A DNA stretch of 24,512 nt, taken from NCBI GenBank assembly GCA_036478295.1, contig JAZGDW010000058.1, forward strand, positions 1-24,512. The letters are read 5' to 3'. Position numbers: made by a program. Source of the DNA: Candidatus Krumholzibacteriia bacterium (GTDB lineage: Bacteria > Krumholzibacteriota > Krumholzibacteriia > WVZY01). This document shows positions 12,001 to 18,000 of the stretch, in pieces (positions within the stretch are counted from its first letter, which is position 1; every line of letters starts with the position of its first letter).

Positions 12001-15000
12001 CCGCGCGGCTCAGCGCCGGCGGCGCGCGACAACCCGAGCGCGACAACCCCGGTGCCACCCGCGAAAACGGCACGCCGGCTCAAAAGTCCCGGTCCATGAC
12101 GGTCTTGCGACCGGCACTCCTTGCCTTTTCAACGGCCTCATCGCAGAGACGGCGAACGATGCTGGACAATGCCGGTGCAACGTTGCCGGCCGTGCTCATG
12201 CCGGCGGTCGACTTGATGTATTTCTTGATCTTCGATACAACAACCAGGGTTTCGTTATCGCTCATGGTCCCTCCTGTGCGTGGTTCGGGCCAGCCCGTCC
12301 GGGACGGGGTTTTGACGGATTAATATAGCCGTGTCCGGGCAGGTTTGGAAACGACTATTTTGTCGCCGCGAGCGGATCGTTTCCCGTGCGAGCGTGCCCT
12401 GTAACATGATATATACAATAGGTTACAGGGCACGCACCAGACGGAGAACCCCGATAGTATCCTGGGCGCCGTCTGGCTCAGCGCAGGAGAACGATCTTGC
12501 GGCTGAAATGCTGTGTCGCCGTCTTCATGCGGTAATAGTAAACCCCCGAGGCAACGCGCTGGCCGACCTGGTTGGTTCCATCCCAGGTGACCGTCTGAAA
12601 CCCTGGTGGCCTTTCCTCATTGATAAGCGTCTTCACCAGACGACCGGCGACGTCGTAGATGCGGATCGTCATCGGTTCCCGTTTTCCGAGCGCATAGCGG
12701 ATGGTCGCAGATGTGCGGAACGGGTTGGGCCAGTTCTGGAGCAGCGCGGTCTTTATCGTTGGAATATCACCGATCCCAGTCGGATCCACATGGAGGCTGG
12801 TTGTGTCGGTGACCATTACAACCGGCGCGGCCCGTCCCTGTGCCACCCATGCATCGTACAACTGTTGTCCCAGTGTGTTGGTCGTGTTTTCGTCGCGGAG
12901 GAACTCGATGTATCCCTTCGATGTAGTTTGGTAATACAGTGTCACCTCTGCGAACACCGCGTCGAGGGGCAGAACGTATTCGGTTTCGTCCCAGTACTGG
13001 CCGTCCGGATACGTGTGCGCGACCGGCGGCGACTGAATTGCTTCAAAGGCCGCAAAGGTGTACCCGCGCGGCGGAATCCGGTTATCCGAATATATGGTGT
13101 CGTTCAAAACGAAATGGAACGACGGGGCCGCGGGCAGACCGACGACCGGCGCGAGCGATGTCGAAACGCCGGGCTTGACCTGATAGATCTTCACGTCGGC
13201 GTCGTGCGTAAGAACGCCGGTCGCGGGATCGTATGCGCCTGATTCGTAAACCAGGCTGTCGTCCGCATCGAACGCCTTGACACCCAGCCAGATCCTCCGG
13301 CCTTCCGGGTAGCCGGACGGTAGCTTGTGGCCTGTTTCGTTGGTGACCGTCACCGTGACTGTCGGATTGGAAAGTTGCTGGCCGGGGGTAAGTGCCATCG
13401 TCGCCGCCAGCCCCAGCATCTGGATCGCCCGCTGCTTTCCATCCTGCAGGCGCAGCGAATCCACTTCACTGCCCCAGAAGGACGGCAGAATATCCGGCAC
13501 GAAGTGATTGGCTCCCATCAGGTCGTGCAGCGGCAGATCGGGCCGCGTCGGAACGCCGGGCTCGTCGCAGCCCACTCCGCTAACGTCGCGCATGTGGCAA
13601 TCCTGGCAGGTCGACACGATGCCGTCGGCCTTATTGCCCGCGAACTGCGGTGCGAACACGCCCGACGCCGCGTACTCACTCTCCGACCACTCGCTGAACG
13701 TACGCTCCACAGGGAACATATTCCGAAGGTCTCCGTCGGGATGGGGTGCGTCGAATGCGTTAGGCACGTATTCACCCGGACTGCCGCCGGCGCTGAACAC
13801 GGGGTTGCTGACGTCATGGCAGGTCCCGCAGAGAGCGGCGCGGTGAAAGGGCGATTCGAGAAACGAGTGGCTCGCGACCGCATCGCCAAACGGCCCGCGC
13901 ATGATCGGGTCCGGGTCGACCACATACTGCCCGTTCGCCGGGGCGAGGGGCACGACATCCAGCGAATCGAGCACCGCCGTGTCCTGCGGTGGGCTTATGC
14001 CGGGTTTATAGATCGGGTCCACCTGGCGGTGACAGAAATCGCATTGGACACCCGCGCGGTCCTTTGCCGTTATGAGAGCACCGCTCGTATCGACCGAACG
14101 TCCTTCCAGCCACCCGCCCGGCGTGTGACAACGGATGCAAAGATCGCCCACTGACGGCGCATCCTGCTCGGCCACCACCACGGTGGCCAGAAACAGCGGA
14201 TCCCTCTGGGCTTGGGCCATCATACTGCCCTTCCACACGTACCAGGGCTCCACCGCGGGATCGTATTCGCCGTGGCAGGTGACGCAGTTGACATCGGGGT
14301 CCCTGAACACACCTGCGGAGAATGGCTGCGAGCCGGGAAGATCGATATCACGCATCGTTGTGGGGACAGTTCCACCGGGTACGCGGGTGATCGTGAAGGA
14401 GGCGTCGCTCAGATCCTCACCGTAGTTGCCCGCGTTGTCCCGTGCCACCACACGGATGGCGCTCAGTCCGCCGGGGCGGTTGGGCACGAACCAGTCGAAG
14501 GTTCCGTCGTTGGGTTCCTGGGCGGCGACCTGCTTGAAGGTCCCGCCAAAATCGTCGGACAAGTAGATATCCACATGTGAAATGCCGCTGGCGTCGGTCG
14601 CCGACCAGGTCACGAGATCGAATGTGCCTGCCTGGGCGTTCTCTCCGCCGTTCGGTGACAGAACGGTCACGACCGGAGGTGTGGTGTCGCTGCTGCCGCT
14701 GGGCGTCAGGTACGGCAGTATGTCGGCCGGATCGACGTTAGCGACGGAGCCGACGTTGCCCGATTCGAGTCCGGGGAAGGTCGGGGTATTGGTAAAATTG
14801 ATGACGTCTGTTATCTCGACATTATTGATAAAACCATCGTTGTCGGCATCGAGGCCATCGAGCGAGAGGATGGCAGCCTCGGTGGTGGGGAAGCTGCCGA
14901 TGGCAACCTCCACCGACAATCCGTAAGGATTCCGCGGCCCGCCGCCGTCGAAATCAAAATGGCACACACCGCAGTGCCCCGCGTTGCTGGGCAGGTCGTC

Positions 15001-18000
15001 GAGCCGGCTTGCGGTGGCGCCGGGATACACATTGAAAAACGCCTTGCGGATCGGTCTTCGGGCCTGGGCCGGTGACACCGGAAGCGTGAGAAGGGTCGCG
15101 ATGACGAGGATGGATACTCTGAAAAAGGCAGTGGGCATGGCGCACCTCGTTCGGAGAAAGGGGAAGGAAAAGTGACAAATATCAACTATGTGAAAAGTTT
15201 CACATACTTTCTGCAGTGAGTATAGACCTGATTGTTGCGTTTCGCCATTTCGTTTTTGCCCCGCCGATCGATCCTCTAACGGAATAGTGAAACCATCGCC
15301 TGAAATTGGCTTGCGCCGGGCTGTGCCGCGTGCCACGATGCACGGTGCCCGCTTGGGGTCGCGGGTCCTTATTCGCGATCGTGTGTCCACTGCAACCCTC
15401 ATGAAAAACAGACTGTCGGTGATTCAATCCGTGCCGGTCTGGCTACCGCAGACCGGCACGTGGCTCCACGACCAGGTTCGGTTCCTGCCCGACGATATCG
15501 AGAGCCACGTCGTTTGCGAAACCACTCAACGCCTCGACCAGTTTCCCTTCCACAATATCGACTGCCTTCGCGATCAGCCGCGCCTGAAATTCGTCTGGGA
15601 CCTGGGTATGCGGAAGATCGGCGCCCGCAAGCACCTGCATTTCCACGTGGCGTGCGCCCGCAAGCACGGCGCCCGCCTGATGCACTCGCATTTCGGCAAC
15701 ACCGCCTGGCAGGATCTCGGCGCCGCCAGGGCTGCGTCGCTGCACCACGTCGTCACGTTCTACGGGCGGGACGTGAACCACCTGCCCACCGTCGATCCAC
15801 GCTGGCGCGAGCGCTACGGCGAGCTGTTCCGGCGGGTCGACTGCGTGCTGTGTGAAGGCGAGTTCATGGCGGCGAGCATCGTGCGGCTCGGCTGCCCCGA
15901 GAACAAAGTGCGTGTCCACCACCTGGGGGTCGATGTCGAGGCCATCACCTTCGTGCCCAGGGAATGGGCGCCCGGCCAGCCGCTGCGCGTGTTCATGGCA
16001 TCTGTTTTTCGCGAAAAGAAAGGAATCCCCTACGGACTGGAGGCATTGGGCCGGCTGCAGCACGACGTTCCGCTGGAAATCACCATCATTGGTGACGCGC
16101 ACGGCACGGCCGGCACCCGGGAAGAGAAGAAGAAAATCCTCGCCACCATCGAAAAGCACGGCCTGGGTCCGCGAACCCGCCGGCTCGGCATCACGCCGTA
16201 CGAGGTCATGCGCCGGGAAGCGCTCGATCACCACGTTTTCATGTCGCCGAGTGTGACGGCCGCCGACGGCGACACCGAGGGTGGGGTTCCGGTCTCGATT
16301 ATCGAGATGTGCGCGTCGGGCATGCCGGTGGTGAGCACCAGGCACTGTGACATCCCCGGTGTTATTCTCGACGGCAAGACCGGCCTGCTCGCCGACGAGC
16401 GCGACGTCGACGGGCTGGTGCGCGGCCTGCGCTGGCTGGTGGAACATCCCGGCGAGTGGAGCGGTATGCTCGCTGCCTCCCGCCGGCGCATCGAGCAGGA
16501 GTTCGATGCTCGTACGCAGGGGACGCGGCTCGGTGCCATATACGCGGAGATCGCGGGCGGGGGCGCCGTCGCCGCCTGAAGCCGCTGCGGACGCTCGCCG
16601 ATAGCGCGAAAAGGCCTGTACCATCAACGGTTGCGCGCCCCGGTACTTCCCGCTAATATCAGGGGGCGCACCCCCATTTGAAAGGCGACCCGATCGATGT
16701 CCGACCCCGTACGTCCCGATGACCGCTTCCTGATTTTCGGCGCTCCCGCCATCGAGGAGGACGAGGTGCAGGAAGTCGTCGCCAGCATCCGTAGCGGCTG
16801 GCTCGGCACCGGTCCCAAGGTTGCCCGCTTCGTCGAGGACTTCAAGAGCTACATCGGCGCAGAGCACGCCGCCGCCGTCAACTCCGGCACCGCGGCCATG
16901 CATCTGGCCATGATCGCCGCGCAGCTCGATCGCGGTGACGAAGTCATCACGACGGCGATGACGTTCTGCTCCACGGTCAACGCGATCATCCATGCCGGCG
17001 CGACGCCCGTACTCGCCGACTGTGATCGCGGGACGATGAACATCGATCCCGCGCGCATCGAAGAAAAGATCACCCCCCGCACGCGCGCTGTCATGCCGGT
17101 GCACTTCGCGGGCCGCGCGTGCGACATGGACGCCATCATCGACATCGCCGCGCGTCACAACCTCAAGGTGATCGGCGACTGCGCCCACGCCATCGAGACG
17201 GAGTACAAGGGACGCAAGGTGGGGACCATCGGTGAATTTGCCTGCTACAGTTTTTACGTAACGAAGAACGTCATTACCGGCGAAGGAGGCATGGTGCTCA
17301 CCCGCCGGGAGGAGGACGCGGCCCGTATCCGCACGCTCGCGCTGCACGGGATGAGCAAGGACGCGTGGAAACGCTTCAGCGACGAGGGCTACGTCCATTA
17401 CTACGTCTACGAGGCGGGCTTCAAGTACAACCTGATGGATATCCAGGCGGCGATCGGCATACACCATCTCAAACGGGTGGAGAAATACTGGAAGCGCCGG
17501 GAGGAGATATGGAAGCGTTACGACAAGGCATTCGCGGACATGCCGATCGGCACCCCACTGCCAGCCGAACCGGACACGCGCCACGCCCATCATCTCTACA
17601 CGATCATGGTGGACAAGAAGCGGTCGGGAATCACTCGCGACGAGTTCTTGAACGCGATCCAGGCACATAATATCGGAGTCGGTGTTCACTATTTGAGCAT
17701 CCCCGAGCATCCTTACTATAAGAAAACCTTCGGCTGGAAGCCCGCGGAGTACCCGAACGCCTCGCGGGTCGGGCGCGAAACGGTTAGCCTGCCCCTGTCG
17801 GCCAAACTGACCGACGGGGACGTCGACGACGTGGTCGAGGCGGTGGGGAGGGTTCTTCACCGGTGACCTGGTTAGAAGGCGCCGCCGGAATCCCCCTCCG
17901 GCAGCTCACAAACTTGAGGGAATTGCTCGCCGGCCGCTCGGTCACGACTCCGGCCATGGGCTCCGTAACTCTCGACGAGGACGACGTGGCGCTCGCCCGC

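What a model noticed while it worked through the whole genome (the two positions that open the first line are those of the whole stretch)
12478..15138. Hexahaem c-type cytochrome carrying a type IX secretion sorting domain
g02607 is an 886-aa protein with a signal-peptide-like N-terminus, six CXXCH haem-binding motifs and a C-terminal T9SS type A sorting domain. I read it as a multihaem cytochrome that is matured in the periplasm and then exported and anchored to the cell surface by the type IX secretion system, a route for extracellular electron transfer not used by the known models. New would be T9SS as an export path for respiratory cytochromes.
Evidence so far: CXXCH at residues 56, 285, 334, 366, 437, 511; Pfam FlgD_ig 823-875 and NCBIfam 'T9SS type A sorting domain' at the C-terminus. 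The genome has SprA/Sov, PorU, PorV, PorX and a Ccm operon. Full-length orthologues (61-69% identity over residues ~10-886, sorting domain included) are listed for at least 10 of the 35 other genomes of the order. Other multihaem proteins (19 CXXCH in g01615, MtrC-like g01613, ImcH-like g01616) sit on C170. No paper in the library joins 'type IX secretion' with 'multiheme cytochrome', or T9SS with cytochrome and extracellular electron transfer (0 hits each, calls 155, 156).
(Added by a program. Inside this text positions count along the whole contig: contig position 1 is position 1 of the stretch shown here. "Call 12" and the like, gene names such as g00115 and contig names such as C1 are that model's own, and its searches are not shown. 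The text may have been shortened before it was handed on; [...] marks where a part breaks off. The agent that wrote the report below was given it as the finding of a first reader that could run no searches.)

Follow-up and report, generated by a model that had tools for sequence, protein, structure and literature searches.

The report
Six-haem cytochrome with T9SS export tail
This gene encodes a six-haem electron-carrying protein, built around a known five-haem fold, that ends in the tag some bacteria use to push folded proteins onto the cell surface, so it is probably an outward-facing redox protein delivered by a route not yet described for cytochromes.

Summary
Window 12478-15138 (minus strand) encodes an 886-aa protein with a signal peptide, six CXXCH motifs and a C-terminal T9SS type A sorting domain.

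The protein is modular:
- a monohaem module, then an Ig domain;
- a core at residues ~256-790 with the fold of the pentahaem cytochrome c552 of Thermochromatium tepidum, PDB 5ZE8 (Z 23.7), in the superfamily that holds ExtKL/MccSep;
- the sorting domain.

It lacks both MccSep catalytic residues.

The core family is large and carries interchangeable extracellular tails (T9SS domain, dockerins). Some members are fused to PQQ sugar dehydrogenases or a cupredoxin.

The genome has 79 T9SS-tailed frames over cut-off, SprA, PorU, a PorV-like gene, Ccm genes and an MtrAB-type porin-cytochrome operon. GldK, GldL and GldM were not detected, and no positive control was available.

Best reading: a surface redox protein exported by a T9SS-type route. 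Whether it relays respiratory electrons or is an enzyme stays open.

Ten literature searches found no paper linking T9SS to multihaem cytochromes. This scan has already met the same family on at least eight other genomes.

The parts
12478..15138 (-). Whole coding sequence, 886 aa plus stop codon
   Evidence: Open frame. The start is supported by orthologue lengths and by a GAGG upstream.
15061..15138 (-). Signal peptide, residues 1-26, ending AQA
   Evidence: Read from the sequence. Helix 2-18 in the model. Only 21% mean identity among 117 orthologues, as expected for a signal peptide. No signal-peptide predictor was run.
14689..15060 (-). N-terminal monohaem module, residues 27-150, with a DxDxD...E calcium-loop-like motif
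   Evidence: HCGxCH, D97/D99/D101/E108 and NTPTFPGL are at least 95% conserved in 117 orthologues. Weak NCBIfam match to GEGP dihaem proteins (stronger in P0129 and P0124). The Atlas look-alikes are small stand-alone proteins, some with Temptin_C or TSP3_bac; this is a lead only.
14959..14973 (-). Haem motif 1 (CGVCH, C56-H60)
14374..14688 (-). Ig/Fn3-like spacer domain, residues 151-255
   Evidence: Pfam Big_7 at 22.4 bits, below the 24.1 cut-off. Fold match to CbhA Fn3-like modules, PDB 3pdd: Z 12.1, rmsd 1.7 A, 91 residues aligned.
13504..14373 (-). Alpha-helical pentahaem cap, residues ~256-545
   Evidence: Five invariant CXXCH motifs. Aligned to 5ze8.
14272..14286 (-). Haem motif 2 (CVTCH)
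14125..14139 (-). Haem motif 3 (CIRCH)
14029..14043 (-). Haem motif 4 (CDFCH)
13816..13830 (-). Haem motif 5 (CGTCH)
13594..13608 (-). Haem motif 6 (CQDCH)
12769..13503 (-). Beta-rich Ig-like stem of the core, residues ~546-790
   Evidence: Strands in the model. Lies inside the 5ze8 alignment, model range 274-782.
13294..13332 (-). Conserved loop GHKLPSGYPEGRR, residues 603-615. It is homologous to the loop that carries selenocysteine in MccSep; here a tyrosine sits at that position.
   Evidence: NF040886 alignment over residues 589-633. MccSep peptide quoted in PMC13510729. Family conservation.
12481..12768 (-). Linker and T9SS type A C-terminal sorting domain, residues 791-886
   Evidence: TIGR04183 at 34.8 bits against 23. 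Fold matches to solved sorting domains: PorZ 5m11 Z 10.1, mirolase 8qb1 Z 9.6, NucA in 8glk_D Z 8.7 with 75 of 75 residues aligned.

Best explanation
The gene encodes a secreted six-haem c-type cytochrome.

Inferred route:
1. The Sec system exports the protein to the periplasm.
2. The Ccm system attaches the haems there.
3. The folded protein is recognised through its C-terminal type A sorting domain and passes the outer membrane through the SprA translocon.
4. PorV and PorU handle it, and it ends up on the cell surface or in the medium.

Outside the cell it acts as a redox protein. A compact pentahaem cap on an Ig-like stem (c552/ExtKL fold) is joined, through an Ig spacer, to an extra monohaem module.

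I think it most likely exchanges electrons between the cell and external acceptors or partners. The supply could be the genome's MtrAB-type porin-cytochrome conduit or secreted dehydrogenases.

Shown here: the architecture, the fold, the conservation, the tail, and the presence of SprA, PorU, Ccm genes and the conduit. Inferred: haem loading, export, surface location, and the direction and partners of electron flow.
For: Architecture and motifs.

Structure model: mean pLDDT 90.1, pTM 0.79.

Core fold matches 5ze8:
- VIA-align Z 23.7, rmsd 2.8 A, 340 of 385 residues aligned.
- Foldseek E 1.2e-13.
- Family profile E 1.3e-7.

The tail is real and conserved:
- TIGR04183 over cut-off.
- 65 of 77 family frames in 75 related loci keep it. 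Of the other 12, three are cut by a contig end, two are fragments or spurious frames, and seven carry other tails.
- Its fold resembles solved T9SS sorting domains.

The host uses the pathway:
- 79 frames with the tail over cut-off.
- SprA, PorU, PorV-like gene.
- SprA in 35 of 36 genomes of the order.
- CcmE and CcmF genes.

An extracellular role for the core is supported by its interchangeable tails. Among 73 complete-core proteins (72 representatives plus this one), crude rules label 19 as T9SS tails and 17 as dockerin-like. Curated models confirm TIGR04183 in 13 of the 63 scanned, GC-type dockerin in 3 of those 63, and Pfam Dockerin_1 in 3 of the 22 scanned. The tail changes about 13 times on the core tree, against 17 for shuffled labels.

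Fusions point to electron transfer:
- PQQ glucose/sorbosone dehydrogenase domain in 4 representatives.
- Cupredoxin in 1.
- Lysyl-oxidase domain in 1.

This genome has its own T9SS-tailed PQQ dehydrogenase, 43% identical to the fused one in P0192.

A possible electron supply lies on contig C197. An operon encodes a DmsE/MtrA-family decahaem protein, a predicted 26-strand barrel whose best fold match is MtrB (6r2q_B, E 4.2e-16, TMq 0.73), and a hexahaem lipoprotein-like cytochrome. In one relative (G023) the orthologue lies directly upstream of such an operon on the same strand.
Against: - No experiment bears on any step.
- GldK, GldL and GldM were not detected in this 90.9% complete genome. 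GldM was not detected in 0 of 36 genomes of the order, three of them single-contig, nor in 0 of 5 other family-bearing genomes. These searches had no positive control.
- Pfam Por_Secre_tail is just under its cut-off, and Ig-like folds are common.
- The PorV match is below cut-off.
- No conserved neighbour: 0 of 80 related loci hold the porin or the decahaem gene within 8 kb.
- The gene is patchy in the order: core matches in 21 of 36 genomes, absent from the same-genus genome G034. The porin is in 32 of 36. So the gene is not a fixed part of the conduit.
- The PQQ dehydrogenase does not co-occur with it: 18 of 21 genomes with the cytochrome against 11 of 15 without.
- High conservation, and a nearly invariant loop homologous to the MccSep active-site loop, fit an enzyme at least as well as a relay.
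Confidence: 0.45

Rival explanations
1. It is an exported redox enzyme with a specific small substrate, not an electron relay. The pentahaem cap feeds a catalytic site at the cap-stem interface, as in the polysulfide reductase MccSep. Different residues would give a different, unknown reaction at the cell surface.
For: - The one characterised member of the superfamily is an enzyme whose active site is formed by the loop homologous to residues 603-615 here (Results of PMC13510729).
- That loop and the DNRIPPRG segment are nearly invariant across 74 diverse members.
- The core is 40-57% identical across distant lineages. By my recollection, outer-surface wire cytochromes usually diverge faster.
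- The gene stands alone, like many enzymes.
Against: - Both MccSep catalytic residues are missing. A tyrosine, variable across the wider family, sits at the selenocysteine site, and no conserved cysteine exists beyond the haem motifs.
- Four conserved histidines (H424, H538, H604, H675) plus M307 could give all five core haems a sixth ligand, leaving no obviously open haem. In 5ze8 a histidine aligns with M307. This is inference from alignment; no coordinates were available.
- Fusions to dehydrogenase and cupredoxin modules fit an electron acceptor or donor role.
Confidence: 0.3
2. The protein stays in the periplasm or on the inner face of the outer membrane. The C-terminal FlgD-type Ig domain is then not an export signal here, or the system in this lineage is incomplete.
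For: - GldK, GldL and GldM were not detected in the genome. GldM was not detected in the whole order.
- Pfam Por_Secre_tail is below cut-off.
- MccSep is periplasmic.
Against: - 79 frames with the same tail over cut-off, on proteases, LVIVD-repeat proteins and a dehydrogenase, would make little sense without an export system.
- SprA and PorU are present and pass their cut-offs.
- In other lineages the same core carries dockerins and other extracellular modules.
- The non-detection of GldKLM had no positive control.
Confidence: 0.12
3. The core polymerises into an extracellular cytochrome filament. The idea comes from the relation between c552-type pentahaem proteins and the archaeal filament AvECN, proposed in the cable-bacteria paper.
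For: PMC11976967 (passages) reports structural likeness of pentahaem family members to AvECN and cites Baquero et al. 2023 for the c552 link.
Against: - Nothing here suggests polymerisation.
- The protein carries bulky extra domains and a surface-attachment tail.
- I ran no oligomer prediction; two core copies exceed the tool's size limit.
Confidence: 0.04

Closest known systems
Low-potential pentahaem cytochrome c552 of Thermochromatium tepidum (PDB 5ZE8)
   Same: It has the same fold for residues 274-782: Z 23.7, rmsd 2.8 A, 340 residues aligned, 22% identity. It also has five CXXCH motifs in a helical cap, an Ig-like stem, and the GHxxPxG-type loop.
   Different: c552 is 385-435 aa and has no N-terminal monohaem module, no Ig spacer and no sorting tail. 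A histidine in c552 aligns with M307 here. Its function is unknown according to PMC11976967. The original paper is not held.
ExtKL / MccSep, the pentahaem selenoprotein polysulfide reductase of Geobacter sulfurreducens (PDB 9wt8; NCBIfam NF040886)
   Same: It shares the pentahaem cap plus Ig-like stem. There is local sequence homology from the last haem motif to the stem loop: 29.4 bits here, and up to 44 bits in family members.
   Different: The score is far below the family cut-off of 250. Tyrosine replaces the selenocysteine, and there is no conserved haem-ligating cysteine. MccSep is periplasmic and tetrameric. This protein carries an export tail.
T9SS type A cargo proteins of Bacteroidota (for example mirolase, NucA, PorZ, gingipains)
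   Same: It has a signal peptide plus a C-terminal beta-sandwich sorting domain at the very end of the protein. The host has SprA and PorU.
   Different: The cargo is a multihaem cytochrome, a class I found in no paper. The host is not a Bacteroidota member. GldK/L/M were not detected.
MtrC/OmcA outer-surface decahaem cytochromes of Shewanella with the MtrAB conduit
   Same: It would be an outward-facing multihaem protein in a genome that also has an MtrA-like decahaem and an MtrB-like 26-strand barrel.
   Different: The fold differs. The Pfam MtrC domain match scores 28.4, below its cut-off of 30. There is no lipobox. By my recollection MtrC and OmcA are exported by type II secretion. The gene is not next to the conduit here or in 80 related loci.
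Quinohaemoprotein-type fusions of PQQ dehydrogenases with cytochrome domains
   Same: Four family representatives fuse a PQQ glucose/sorbosone dehydrogenase domain to this pentahaem core. This genome encodes the two as separate T9SS-tailed proteins.
   Different: The window's protein has no dehydrogenase domain. Co-occurrence in the order shows no link. The comparison with known quinohaemoproteins is recalled, not tested.

Membership tests
T9SS type A cargo | N-terminal Sec signal peptide | tested here: met
   By inspection: a hydrophobic core followed by AQA, then RRP. Helix 2-18 in the model. No predictor was run.
T9SS type A cargo | Type A sorting domain at the extreme C-terminus, over the curated cut-off | tested here: met
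   TIGR04183 at 34.8 bits against 23, residues 803-883 of 886. Pfam PF18962 at 26.3, just under 27.
T9SS type A cargo | Sorting domain has the beta-sandwich fold of solved CTDs | tested here: met
   PorZ 5m11 Z 10.1; mirolase CTD 8qb1 Z 9.6 with 77 residues aligned; NucA CTD in 8glk_D Z 8.7 with 75 of 75 aligned. Ig-like folds are common, so this support is modest.
T9SS type A cargo | Host encodes the translocon and attachment proteins SprA, PorU and PorV | tested here: met
   SprA at 516.9 bits summed, cut-off 200. PorU at 429.1, cut-off 420. PorV-like gene at only 125.7, cut-off 250.
T9SS type A cargo | Host encodes the PorK/L/M/N (GldKLMN) motor and ring | tested here: inconclusive
   No match for GldK, GldL or GldM in the genome. 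GldM found in 0 of 36 genomes of the order. No positive control rang. GldN was not searched.
T9SS type A cargo | Export depends on the T9SS and the tail is cleaved | not testable with these tools
   Needs experiment.
Pentahaem c552/ExtKL (PHC) superfamily | Five CXXCH motifs in a helical cap followed by an Ig-like stem | tested here: met
   The family is named in PMC11976967.
Pentahaem c552/ExtKL (PHC) superfamily | Fold similarity to a solved member | tested here: met
   5ze8: Z 23.7, rmsd 2.8 A, 340 residues aligned. Foldseek E 1.2e-13.
MccSep polysulfide reductase (NF040886) | Selenocysteine or cysteine in the GHxxPDG(U/C)P loop | tested here: not met
   Tyrosine (Y610) sits at that position.
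MccSep polysulfide reductase (NF040886) | Conserved cysteine as distal ligand of haem 2 | tested here: not met
   No invariant or nearly invariant cysteine outside the CXXCH motifs in 74 sequences. The one extra cysteine, C524, is not conserved.
MccSep polysulfide reductase (NF040886) | Score over the curated cut-off | tested here: not met
   29.4 bits against 250.
MtrC/OmcA outer-membrane cytochromes | MtrC-type domain over cut-off, lipoprotein signal, gene next to mtrAB | tested here: not met
   PF22113 at 28.4 against 30. No cysteine follows the signal peptide. No porin or decahaem gene in the window or in 80 related loci; adjacent only in G023.

The most novel reading that the evidence does not exclude
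Bacteria of the FCB group outside Bacteroidota use a SprA-based, T9SS-type route to place fully matured multihaem cytochromes on the cell surface. This six-haem protein would then be the outermost electron-exchange module of the cell. It would take electrons from an MtrAB-type conduit or from co-secreted PQQ dehydrogenases and pass them to external acceptors. That would be a new architecture for extracellular electron transfer.
Probability: 0.28. Interest if true: 0.8.

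Novelty: new variant of a known kind. Interest (0 to 1): 0.6.

Why it matters
If the tail works as it does in Bacteroidota, folded haem-loaded cytochromes are T9SS cargo. That would widen what this secretion system is known to carry. It would also give uncultured sediment bacteria of the Krumholzibacteria, Latescibacteria and Eisenbacteria group a way to do redox chemistry outside the cell.

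The core family is very large: 1,411 cluster representatives at E <= 1e-30. It is strongly conserved, wears a different surface anchor in different lineages, and has no known function. One biochemical characterisation would therefore annotate thousands of genes.

The fusions to PQQ sugar dehydrogenases give a concrete, testable electron donor.

Tried and rejected
- **Conserved neighbours.** Clustering of 655 frames from 80 related loci found no partner. The only recurrent family was sigma-54-type activators, in 18 loci at varying distances.
- **Sigma-54 promoter.** There were 7 window matches against 9.6 expected by chance, and none upstream of the gene. The sigma-70 and terminator scans gave nothing above chance.
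- **Expression.** No RNA holder was listed among 8 sequencing runs.
- **Melioribacter lead.** Rejected after reading passages of PMC3534657 and a term search of PMC5492636.
- **Papers holding both T9SS and cytochrome terms.** PMC3914696, PMC5244752, PMC4257694 and PMC11613158 mention the two in unrelated contexts.
- **Transglutaminase matches in Foldseek.** Rejected as spurious multi-Ig alignments with rmsd 25-29 A.
- **Co-occurrence in the order.** The cytochrome shows no association with the PQQ dehydrogenase or with the porin.
- **Original c552 paper.** Not held.
- **Haem ligation from the model.** Model coordinates could not be read in the script box, so ligation is inferred from alignments only.
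- **treekit run.** No answer came back. I built the tree with MAFFT and FastTree instead.
- **Complex prediction.** Not run. I claim no specific binding pair, and two core copies exceed the size limit.

Full report
**Observation.** Window 12478-15138 on the minus strand is an uninterrupted frame of 886 codons. The frame stays open upstream to 15402, but three things favour the ATG at 15138:
- It gives a typical signal peptide, a hydrophobic core ending AQA.
- A GAGG lies 8-11 nt upstream.
- The 117 full-length orthologues are 860-935 aa long and align from the first residues.

Six CXXCH motifs start at C56, C285, C334, C366, C437 and C511. Twelve of the 13 cysteines belong to them. The five core motifs are invariant in a 74-sequence family alignment. 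The N-terminal HCGxCH is at least 95% conserved among the orthologues.

The last ~85 residues match NCBIfam TIGR04183 (T9SS type A sorting domain) at 34.8 bits against a cut-off of 23, and Pfam FlgD_ig at 44.6 against 27. Pfam Por_Secre_tail scores 26.3, just under 27.

**Anatomy.** An AlphaFold2 model built on the 74-sequence alignment is confident: mean pLDDT 90.1, pTM 0.79. It shows five parts:

| Residues | Part |
|---|---|
| 1-26 | Signal peptide |
| 27-150 | Small monohaem module with a conserved DxDxD...E loop |
| 151-255 | Ig/Fn3-like spacer |
| ~256-545 | Helical cap carrying five haem motifs |
| ~546-790 | Beta-rich stem |
| 791-886 | Linker and beta-sandwich sorting domain |

- The core (model range 274-782) aligns to the pentahaem cytochrome c552 of Thermochromatium tepidum (5ze8) with Z 23.7, rmsd 2.8 A over 340 of 385 residues. 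Foldseek gives E 1.2e-13 and the family profile E 1.3e-7.
- The sorting domain resembles solved T9SS tails: PorZ Z 10.1, mirolase Z 9.6, NucA bound in the T9SS complex Z 8.7. Ig-like folds are common, so this support is modest.
- The transglutaminase rows in Foldseek are multi-Ig artefacts with rmsd 25-29 A.

**Relation to known families.** A paper on cable bacteria groups c552, Geobacter ExtKL and Gsu2801 into a "pentahaem cytochrome" family. It notes likeness to an archaeal cytochrome filament (PMC11976967, passages).

ExtKL has since been characterised as MccSep, a periplasmic tetrameric polysulfide reductase (PMC13510729, Results read in full). In MccSep:
- five haems sit in a cap;
- a cysteine ligates haem 2;
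- a selenocysteine reaches in from a loop of the Ig-like stem.

The window's protein shares that loop by sequence (NF040886 aligns residues 589-633). However, a tyrosine sits at the selenocysteine position. No conserved cysteine exists outside the haem motifs. The score is 29.4 against a cut-off of 250. So the protein is a distant relative of MccSep in the same superfamily, not a member of the MccSep family.

Four histidines conserved across the family (H538 and H604 invariant; H424 and H675 at least 90%) plus M307 could supply sixth ligands to all five core haems. M307 aligns with a histidine of c552. This is inference from alignments. I could not read model coordinates.

**The wider family.**
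- The word-indexed search found 2,583 relatives among 8,000 scored candidates. The best 120 were 59-96% identical over 87-100% of the query. Where a name was given, they were called T9SS sorting-domain protein, FlgD Ig-like domain protein, cytochrome c553 or hypothetical, from Latescibacterota, Krumholzibacteria and Eiseniibacteriota.
- The exhaustive search gave 1,411 cluster representatives at E <= 1e-30.
- In species-representative genomes, 399 of 426 candidate stretches encode a relative.
- Among 77 family frames in 75 of the 80 fetched loci, 65 carry the sorting domain by an HMM I built from the alignment. Of the other 12, three are cut by a contig end, two are fragments or spurious frames, and seven carry other tails, several of them dockerin-like.
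- In the order, 10 of 35 other genomes hold near-full-length orthologues at 61-69% identity, and 10 more hold partial, fragmented or more distant core matches. The same-genus genome G034 (92% complete) has none.

**Interchangeable heads and tails.** Of 72 representatives with a complete core, I scanned 63 with NCBIfam and 22 with Pfam.

Tails found:
- T9SS type A: 13 of 63 by TIGR04183, plus 2 that matched only PorU or FlgD-type tail models.
- GC-type dockerin: 3 of the 63.
- Dockerin type I: 3 of the 22 scanned with Pfam.
- Hydrophobic-plus-basic ends.
- Carbohydrate-binding or repeat modules (CBM96, fn3, PKD, tandem-95 repeats).

Heads found:
- A PQQ glucose/sorbosone dehydrogenase domain in four proteins (P0132, P0188, P0192, P0194).
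- A cupredoxin (P0135).
- Malectin.

A lysyl-oxidase domain lies behind the core in P0207.

On a FastTree of the core, the T9SS tail needs 13 parsimony changes for 19 tailed tips of 73. Shuffled labels give a mean of 17.0 and a minimum of 12. So the tail has been gained or lost many times. Caveats: the labels are crude and some metagenomic proteins may be truncated. All these modules are typical of extracellular proteins, which supports an extracellular role for the core independently of the T9SS argument.

**The host.** The genome is 3.52 Mb in 316 contigs, 90.9% complete and 5.0% contaminated by the tool's figures.
- It has 82 TIGR04183 matches, 79 over cut-off.
- Of the 20 frames with three or more CXXCH, only this one overlaps such a match.
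- SprA and PorU pass their cut-offs. A PorV-like gene next to a PorU fragment scores 125.7 against 250.
- SprA is present in 35 of 36 genomes of the order.
- CcmE and CcmF/C-type genes lie together on C135.
- GldK, GldL and GldM gave no match. GldM gave none in 36 genomes of the order, three of them single-contig, nor in five other family-bearing genomes.

None of the GldKLM searches rang in any control genome. They therefore show non-detection with Bacteroidota-trained models, not absence. This is the main weakness of the export argument.

**How electrons could reach a surface cytochrome.** Contig C197 carries a tight operon:

| Gene product | Evidence |
|---|---|
| 343-aa DmsE/MtrA-family decahaem protein | TIGR03508, E 1.6e-47; 162 bits, under the 192 cut-off |
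| 529-aa protein with a signal peptide | Start codon directly follows the decahaem stop codon |
| 363-aa hexahaem protein | Lipoprotein-like signal and MtrC-domain matches |

The 529-aa protein models as a 26-strand barrel, pLDDT 87.4. Its best fold match is MtrB of the Mtr complex (6r2q_B, E 4.2e-16, TMq 0.73), eight orders of magnitude ahead of the next hit. Four of its 108 homologues carry Pfam MtrB_PioB. The barrel is found in 32 of 36 genomes of the order.

In G023 the 3' end of the orthologous cytochrome gene lies directly upstream of decahaem, barrel and hexahaem genes on the same strand. None of the 80 other loci shows this. The conduit therefore exists, but its link to this protein is an inference.

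**A second possible partner.** The genome encodes a 477-aa PQQ dehydrogenase with its own T9SS tail on C45. It is 43% identical over 393 residues to the dehydrogenase domain fused to the pentahaem core in P0192. Its downstream neighbour is a YceI-domain protein.

Co-occurrence in the order does not support an obligate pair. The dehydrogenase is found in 18 of 21 genomes with the cytochrome and in 11 of 15 without.

**Literature.** Ten searches of the library found no paper that joins T9SS, or Por sorting domains, with multihaem cytochromes.
- Searches returned nothing.
- The papers returned that held both kinds of term mention them in unrelated contexts (passages read).
- Searches listed no paper joining the two.
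- searched for the fold's relatives.
- Subscription journals and supplements are outside this search.

The scan itself has met the same six-haem or five-haem family on at least eight other genomes, with the same closest structure. I had reached 5ze8 and MccSep before reading those notes.

**Verdict.** The protein is a real, conserved, secreted six-haem cytochrome of the c552/ExtKL fold with a T9SS type A tail.
- Export to the surface by a SprA-based route is likely, about 0.7.
- Whether it is an electron relay for respiration, a sink for secreted dehydrogenases or an enzyme remains open.
- I favour electron exchange slightly, because of the fusions and the apparently complete haem ligation.

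It is a new variant of known kinds, T9SS cargo and pentahaem cytochromes, and is not yet described in print as far as I could search.

Noticed in passing
whole genome G000 and the 35 other genomes of its order: SprA is present in 35 of 36 genomes and dozens of T9SS-tailed frames per genome, yet GldM was not detected in any of the 36. GldK and GldL were not detected in G000. Either the motor proteins are too divergent for Bacteroidota-trained models, or this lineage runs a SprA-based system without them. No positive control was available.
   Followed up: partly
G000 contig C197:18508-22247 (L081:4509-8248): An MtrAB-type porin-cytochrome operon: a DmsE/MtrA-family decahaem, a predicted 26-strand barrel whose best fold match is MtrB, and a hexahaem lipoprotein-like cytochrome. 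The barrel is found in 32 of 36 genomes of the order.
   Followed up: yes
G000 contig C45:11880-13301 (L083:8381-9814) and L083:9954-10994: A PQQ glucose/sorbosone dehydrogenase with a T9SS tail, followed by a YceI-domain plus TPR protein. The same dehydrogenase domain is fused to the pentahaem core in four proteins from other lineages.
   Followed up: partly
window 21274-24480 (+): A second T9SS-tailed protein in the window: 1068 aa with LVIVD repeats and a FlgD_ig/TIGR04183 tail.
   Followed up: no
window 15287-19682 (+): Divergent from the cytochrome gene lies a sugar-modification cluster: a GT4 glycosyltransferase, two DegT/EryC1 aminotransferases and a hexapeptide acetyltransferase. By recollection, similar Wbp-type enzymes make the sugar that links T9SS cargo to lipopolysaccharide in Porphyromonas. 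The adjacency is not conserved in related loci.
   Followed up: partly
window 3325-9217 (+): A TetR-like regulator, two 2-hydroxyglutaryl-CoA dehydratase D-component genes and a BcrAD/BadFG-type activator ATPase. This is a 2-hydroxyacyl-CoA dehydratase-type cluster.
   Followed up: no
G000 contig C170 (L082:2649-10421): A cluster with a 973-aa protein that joins 19 CXXCH motifs to a cytochrome b-type membrane domain, a 9-haem protein, a tetrahaem c554-like protein, a 6-haem NapC/NirT-like protein and an NrfD-like membrane subunit.
   Followed up: partly
G024:C17:145164-147790; G030:C1:31525-33696 and 3049064-3051691: In G024 the orthologue is split over three frames on one contig, from frameshifts or assembly errors. 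G030 carries two copies.
   Followed up: no
proteins P0192, P0198, P0210, P0215: Several stand-alone or dehydrogenase-fused family members end a few residues after the core in a short motif of the type YLP followed by hydrophobic and basic residues. This may be an unrecognised sorting signal.
   Followed up: no
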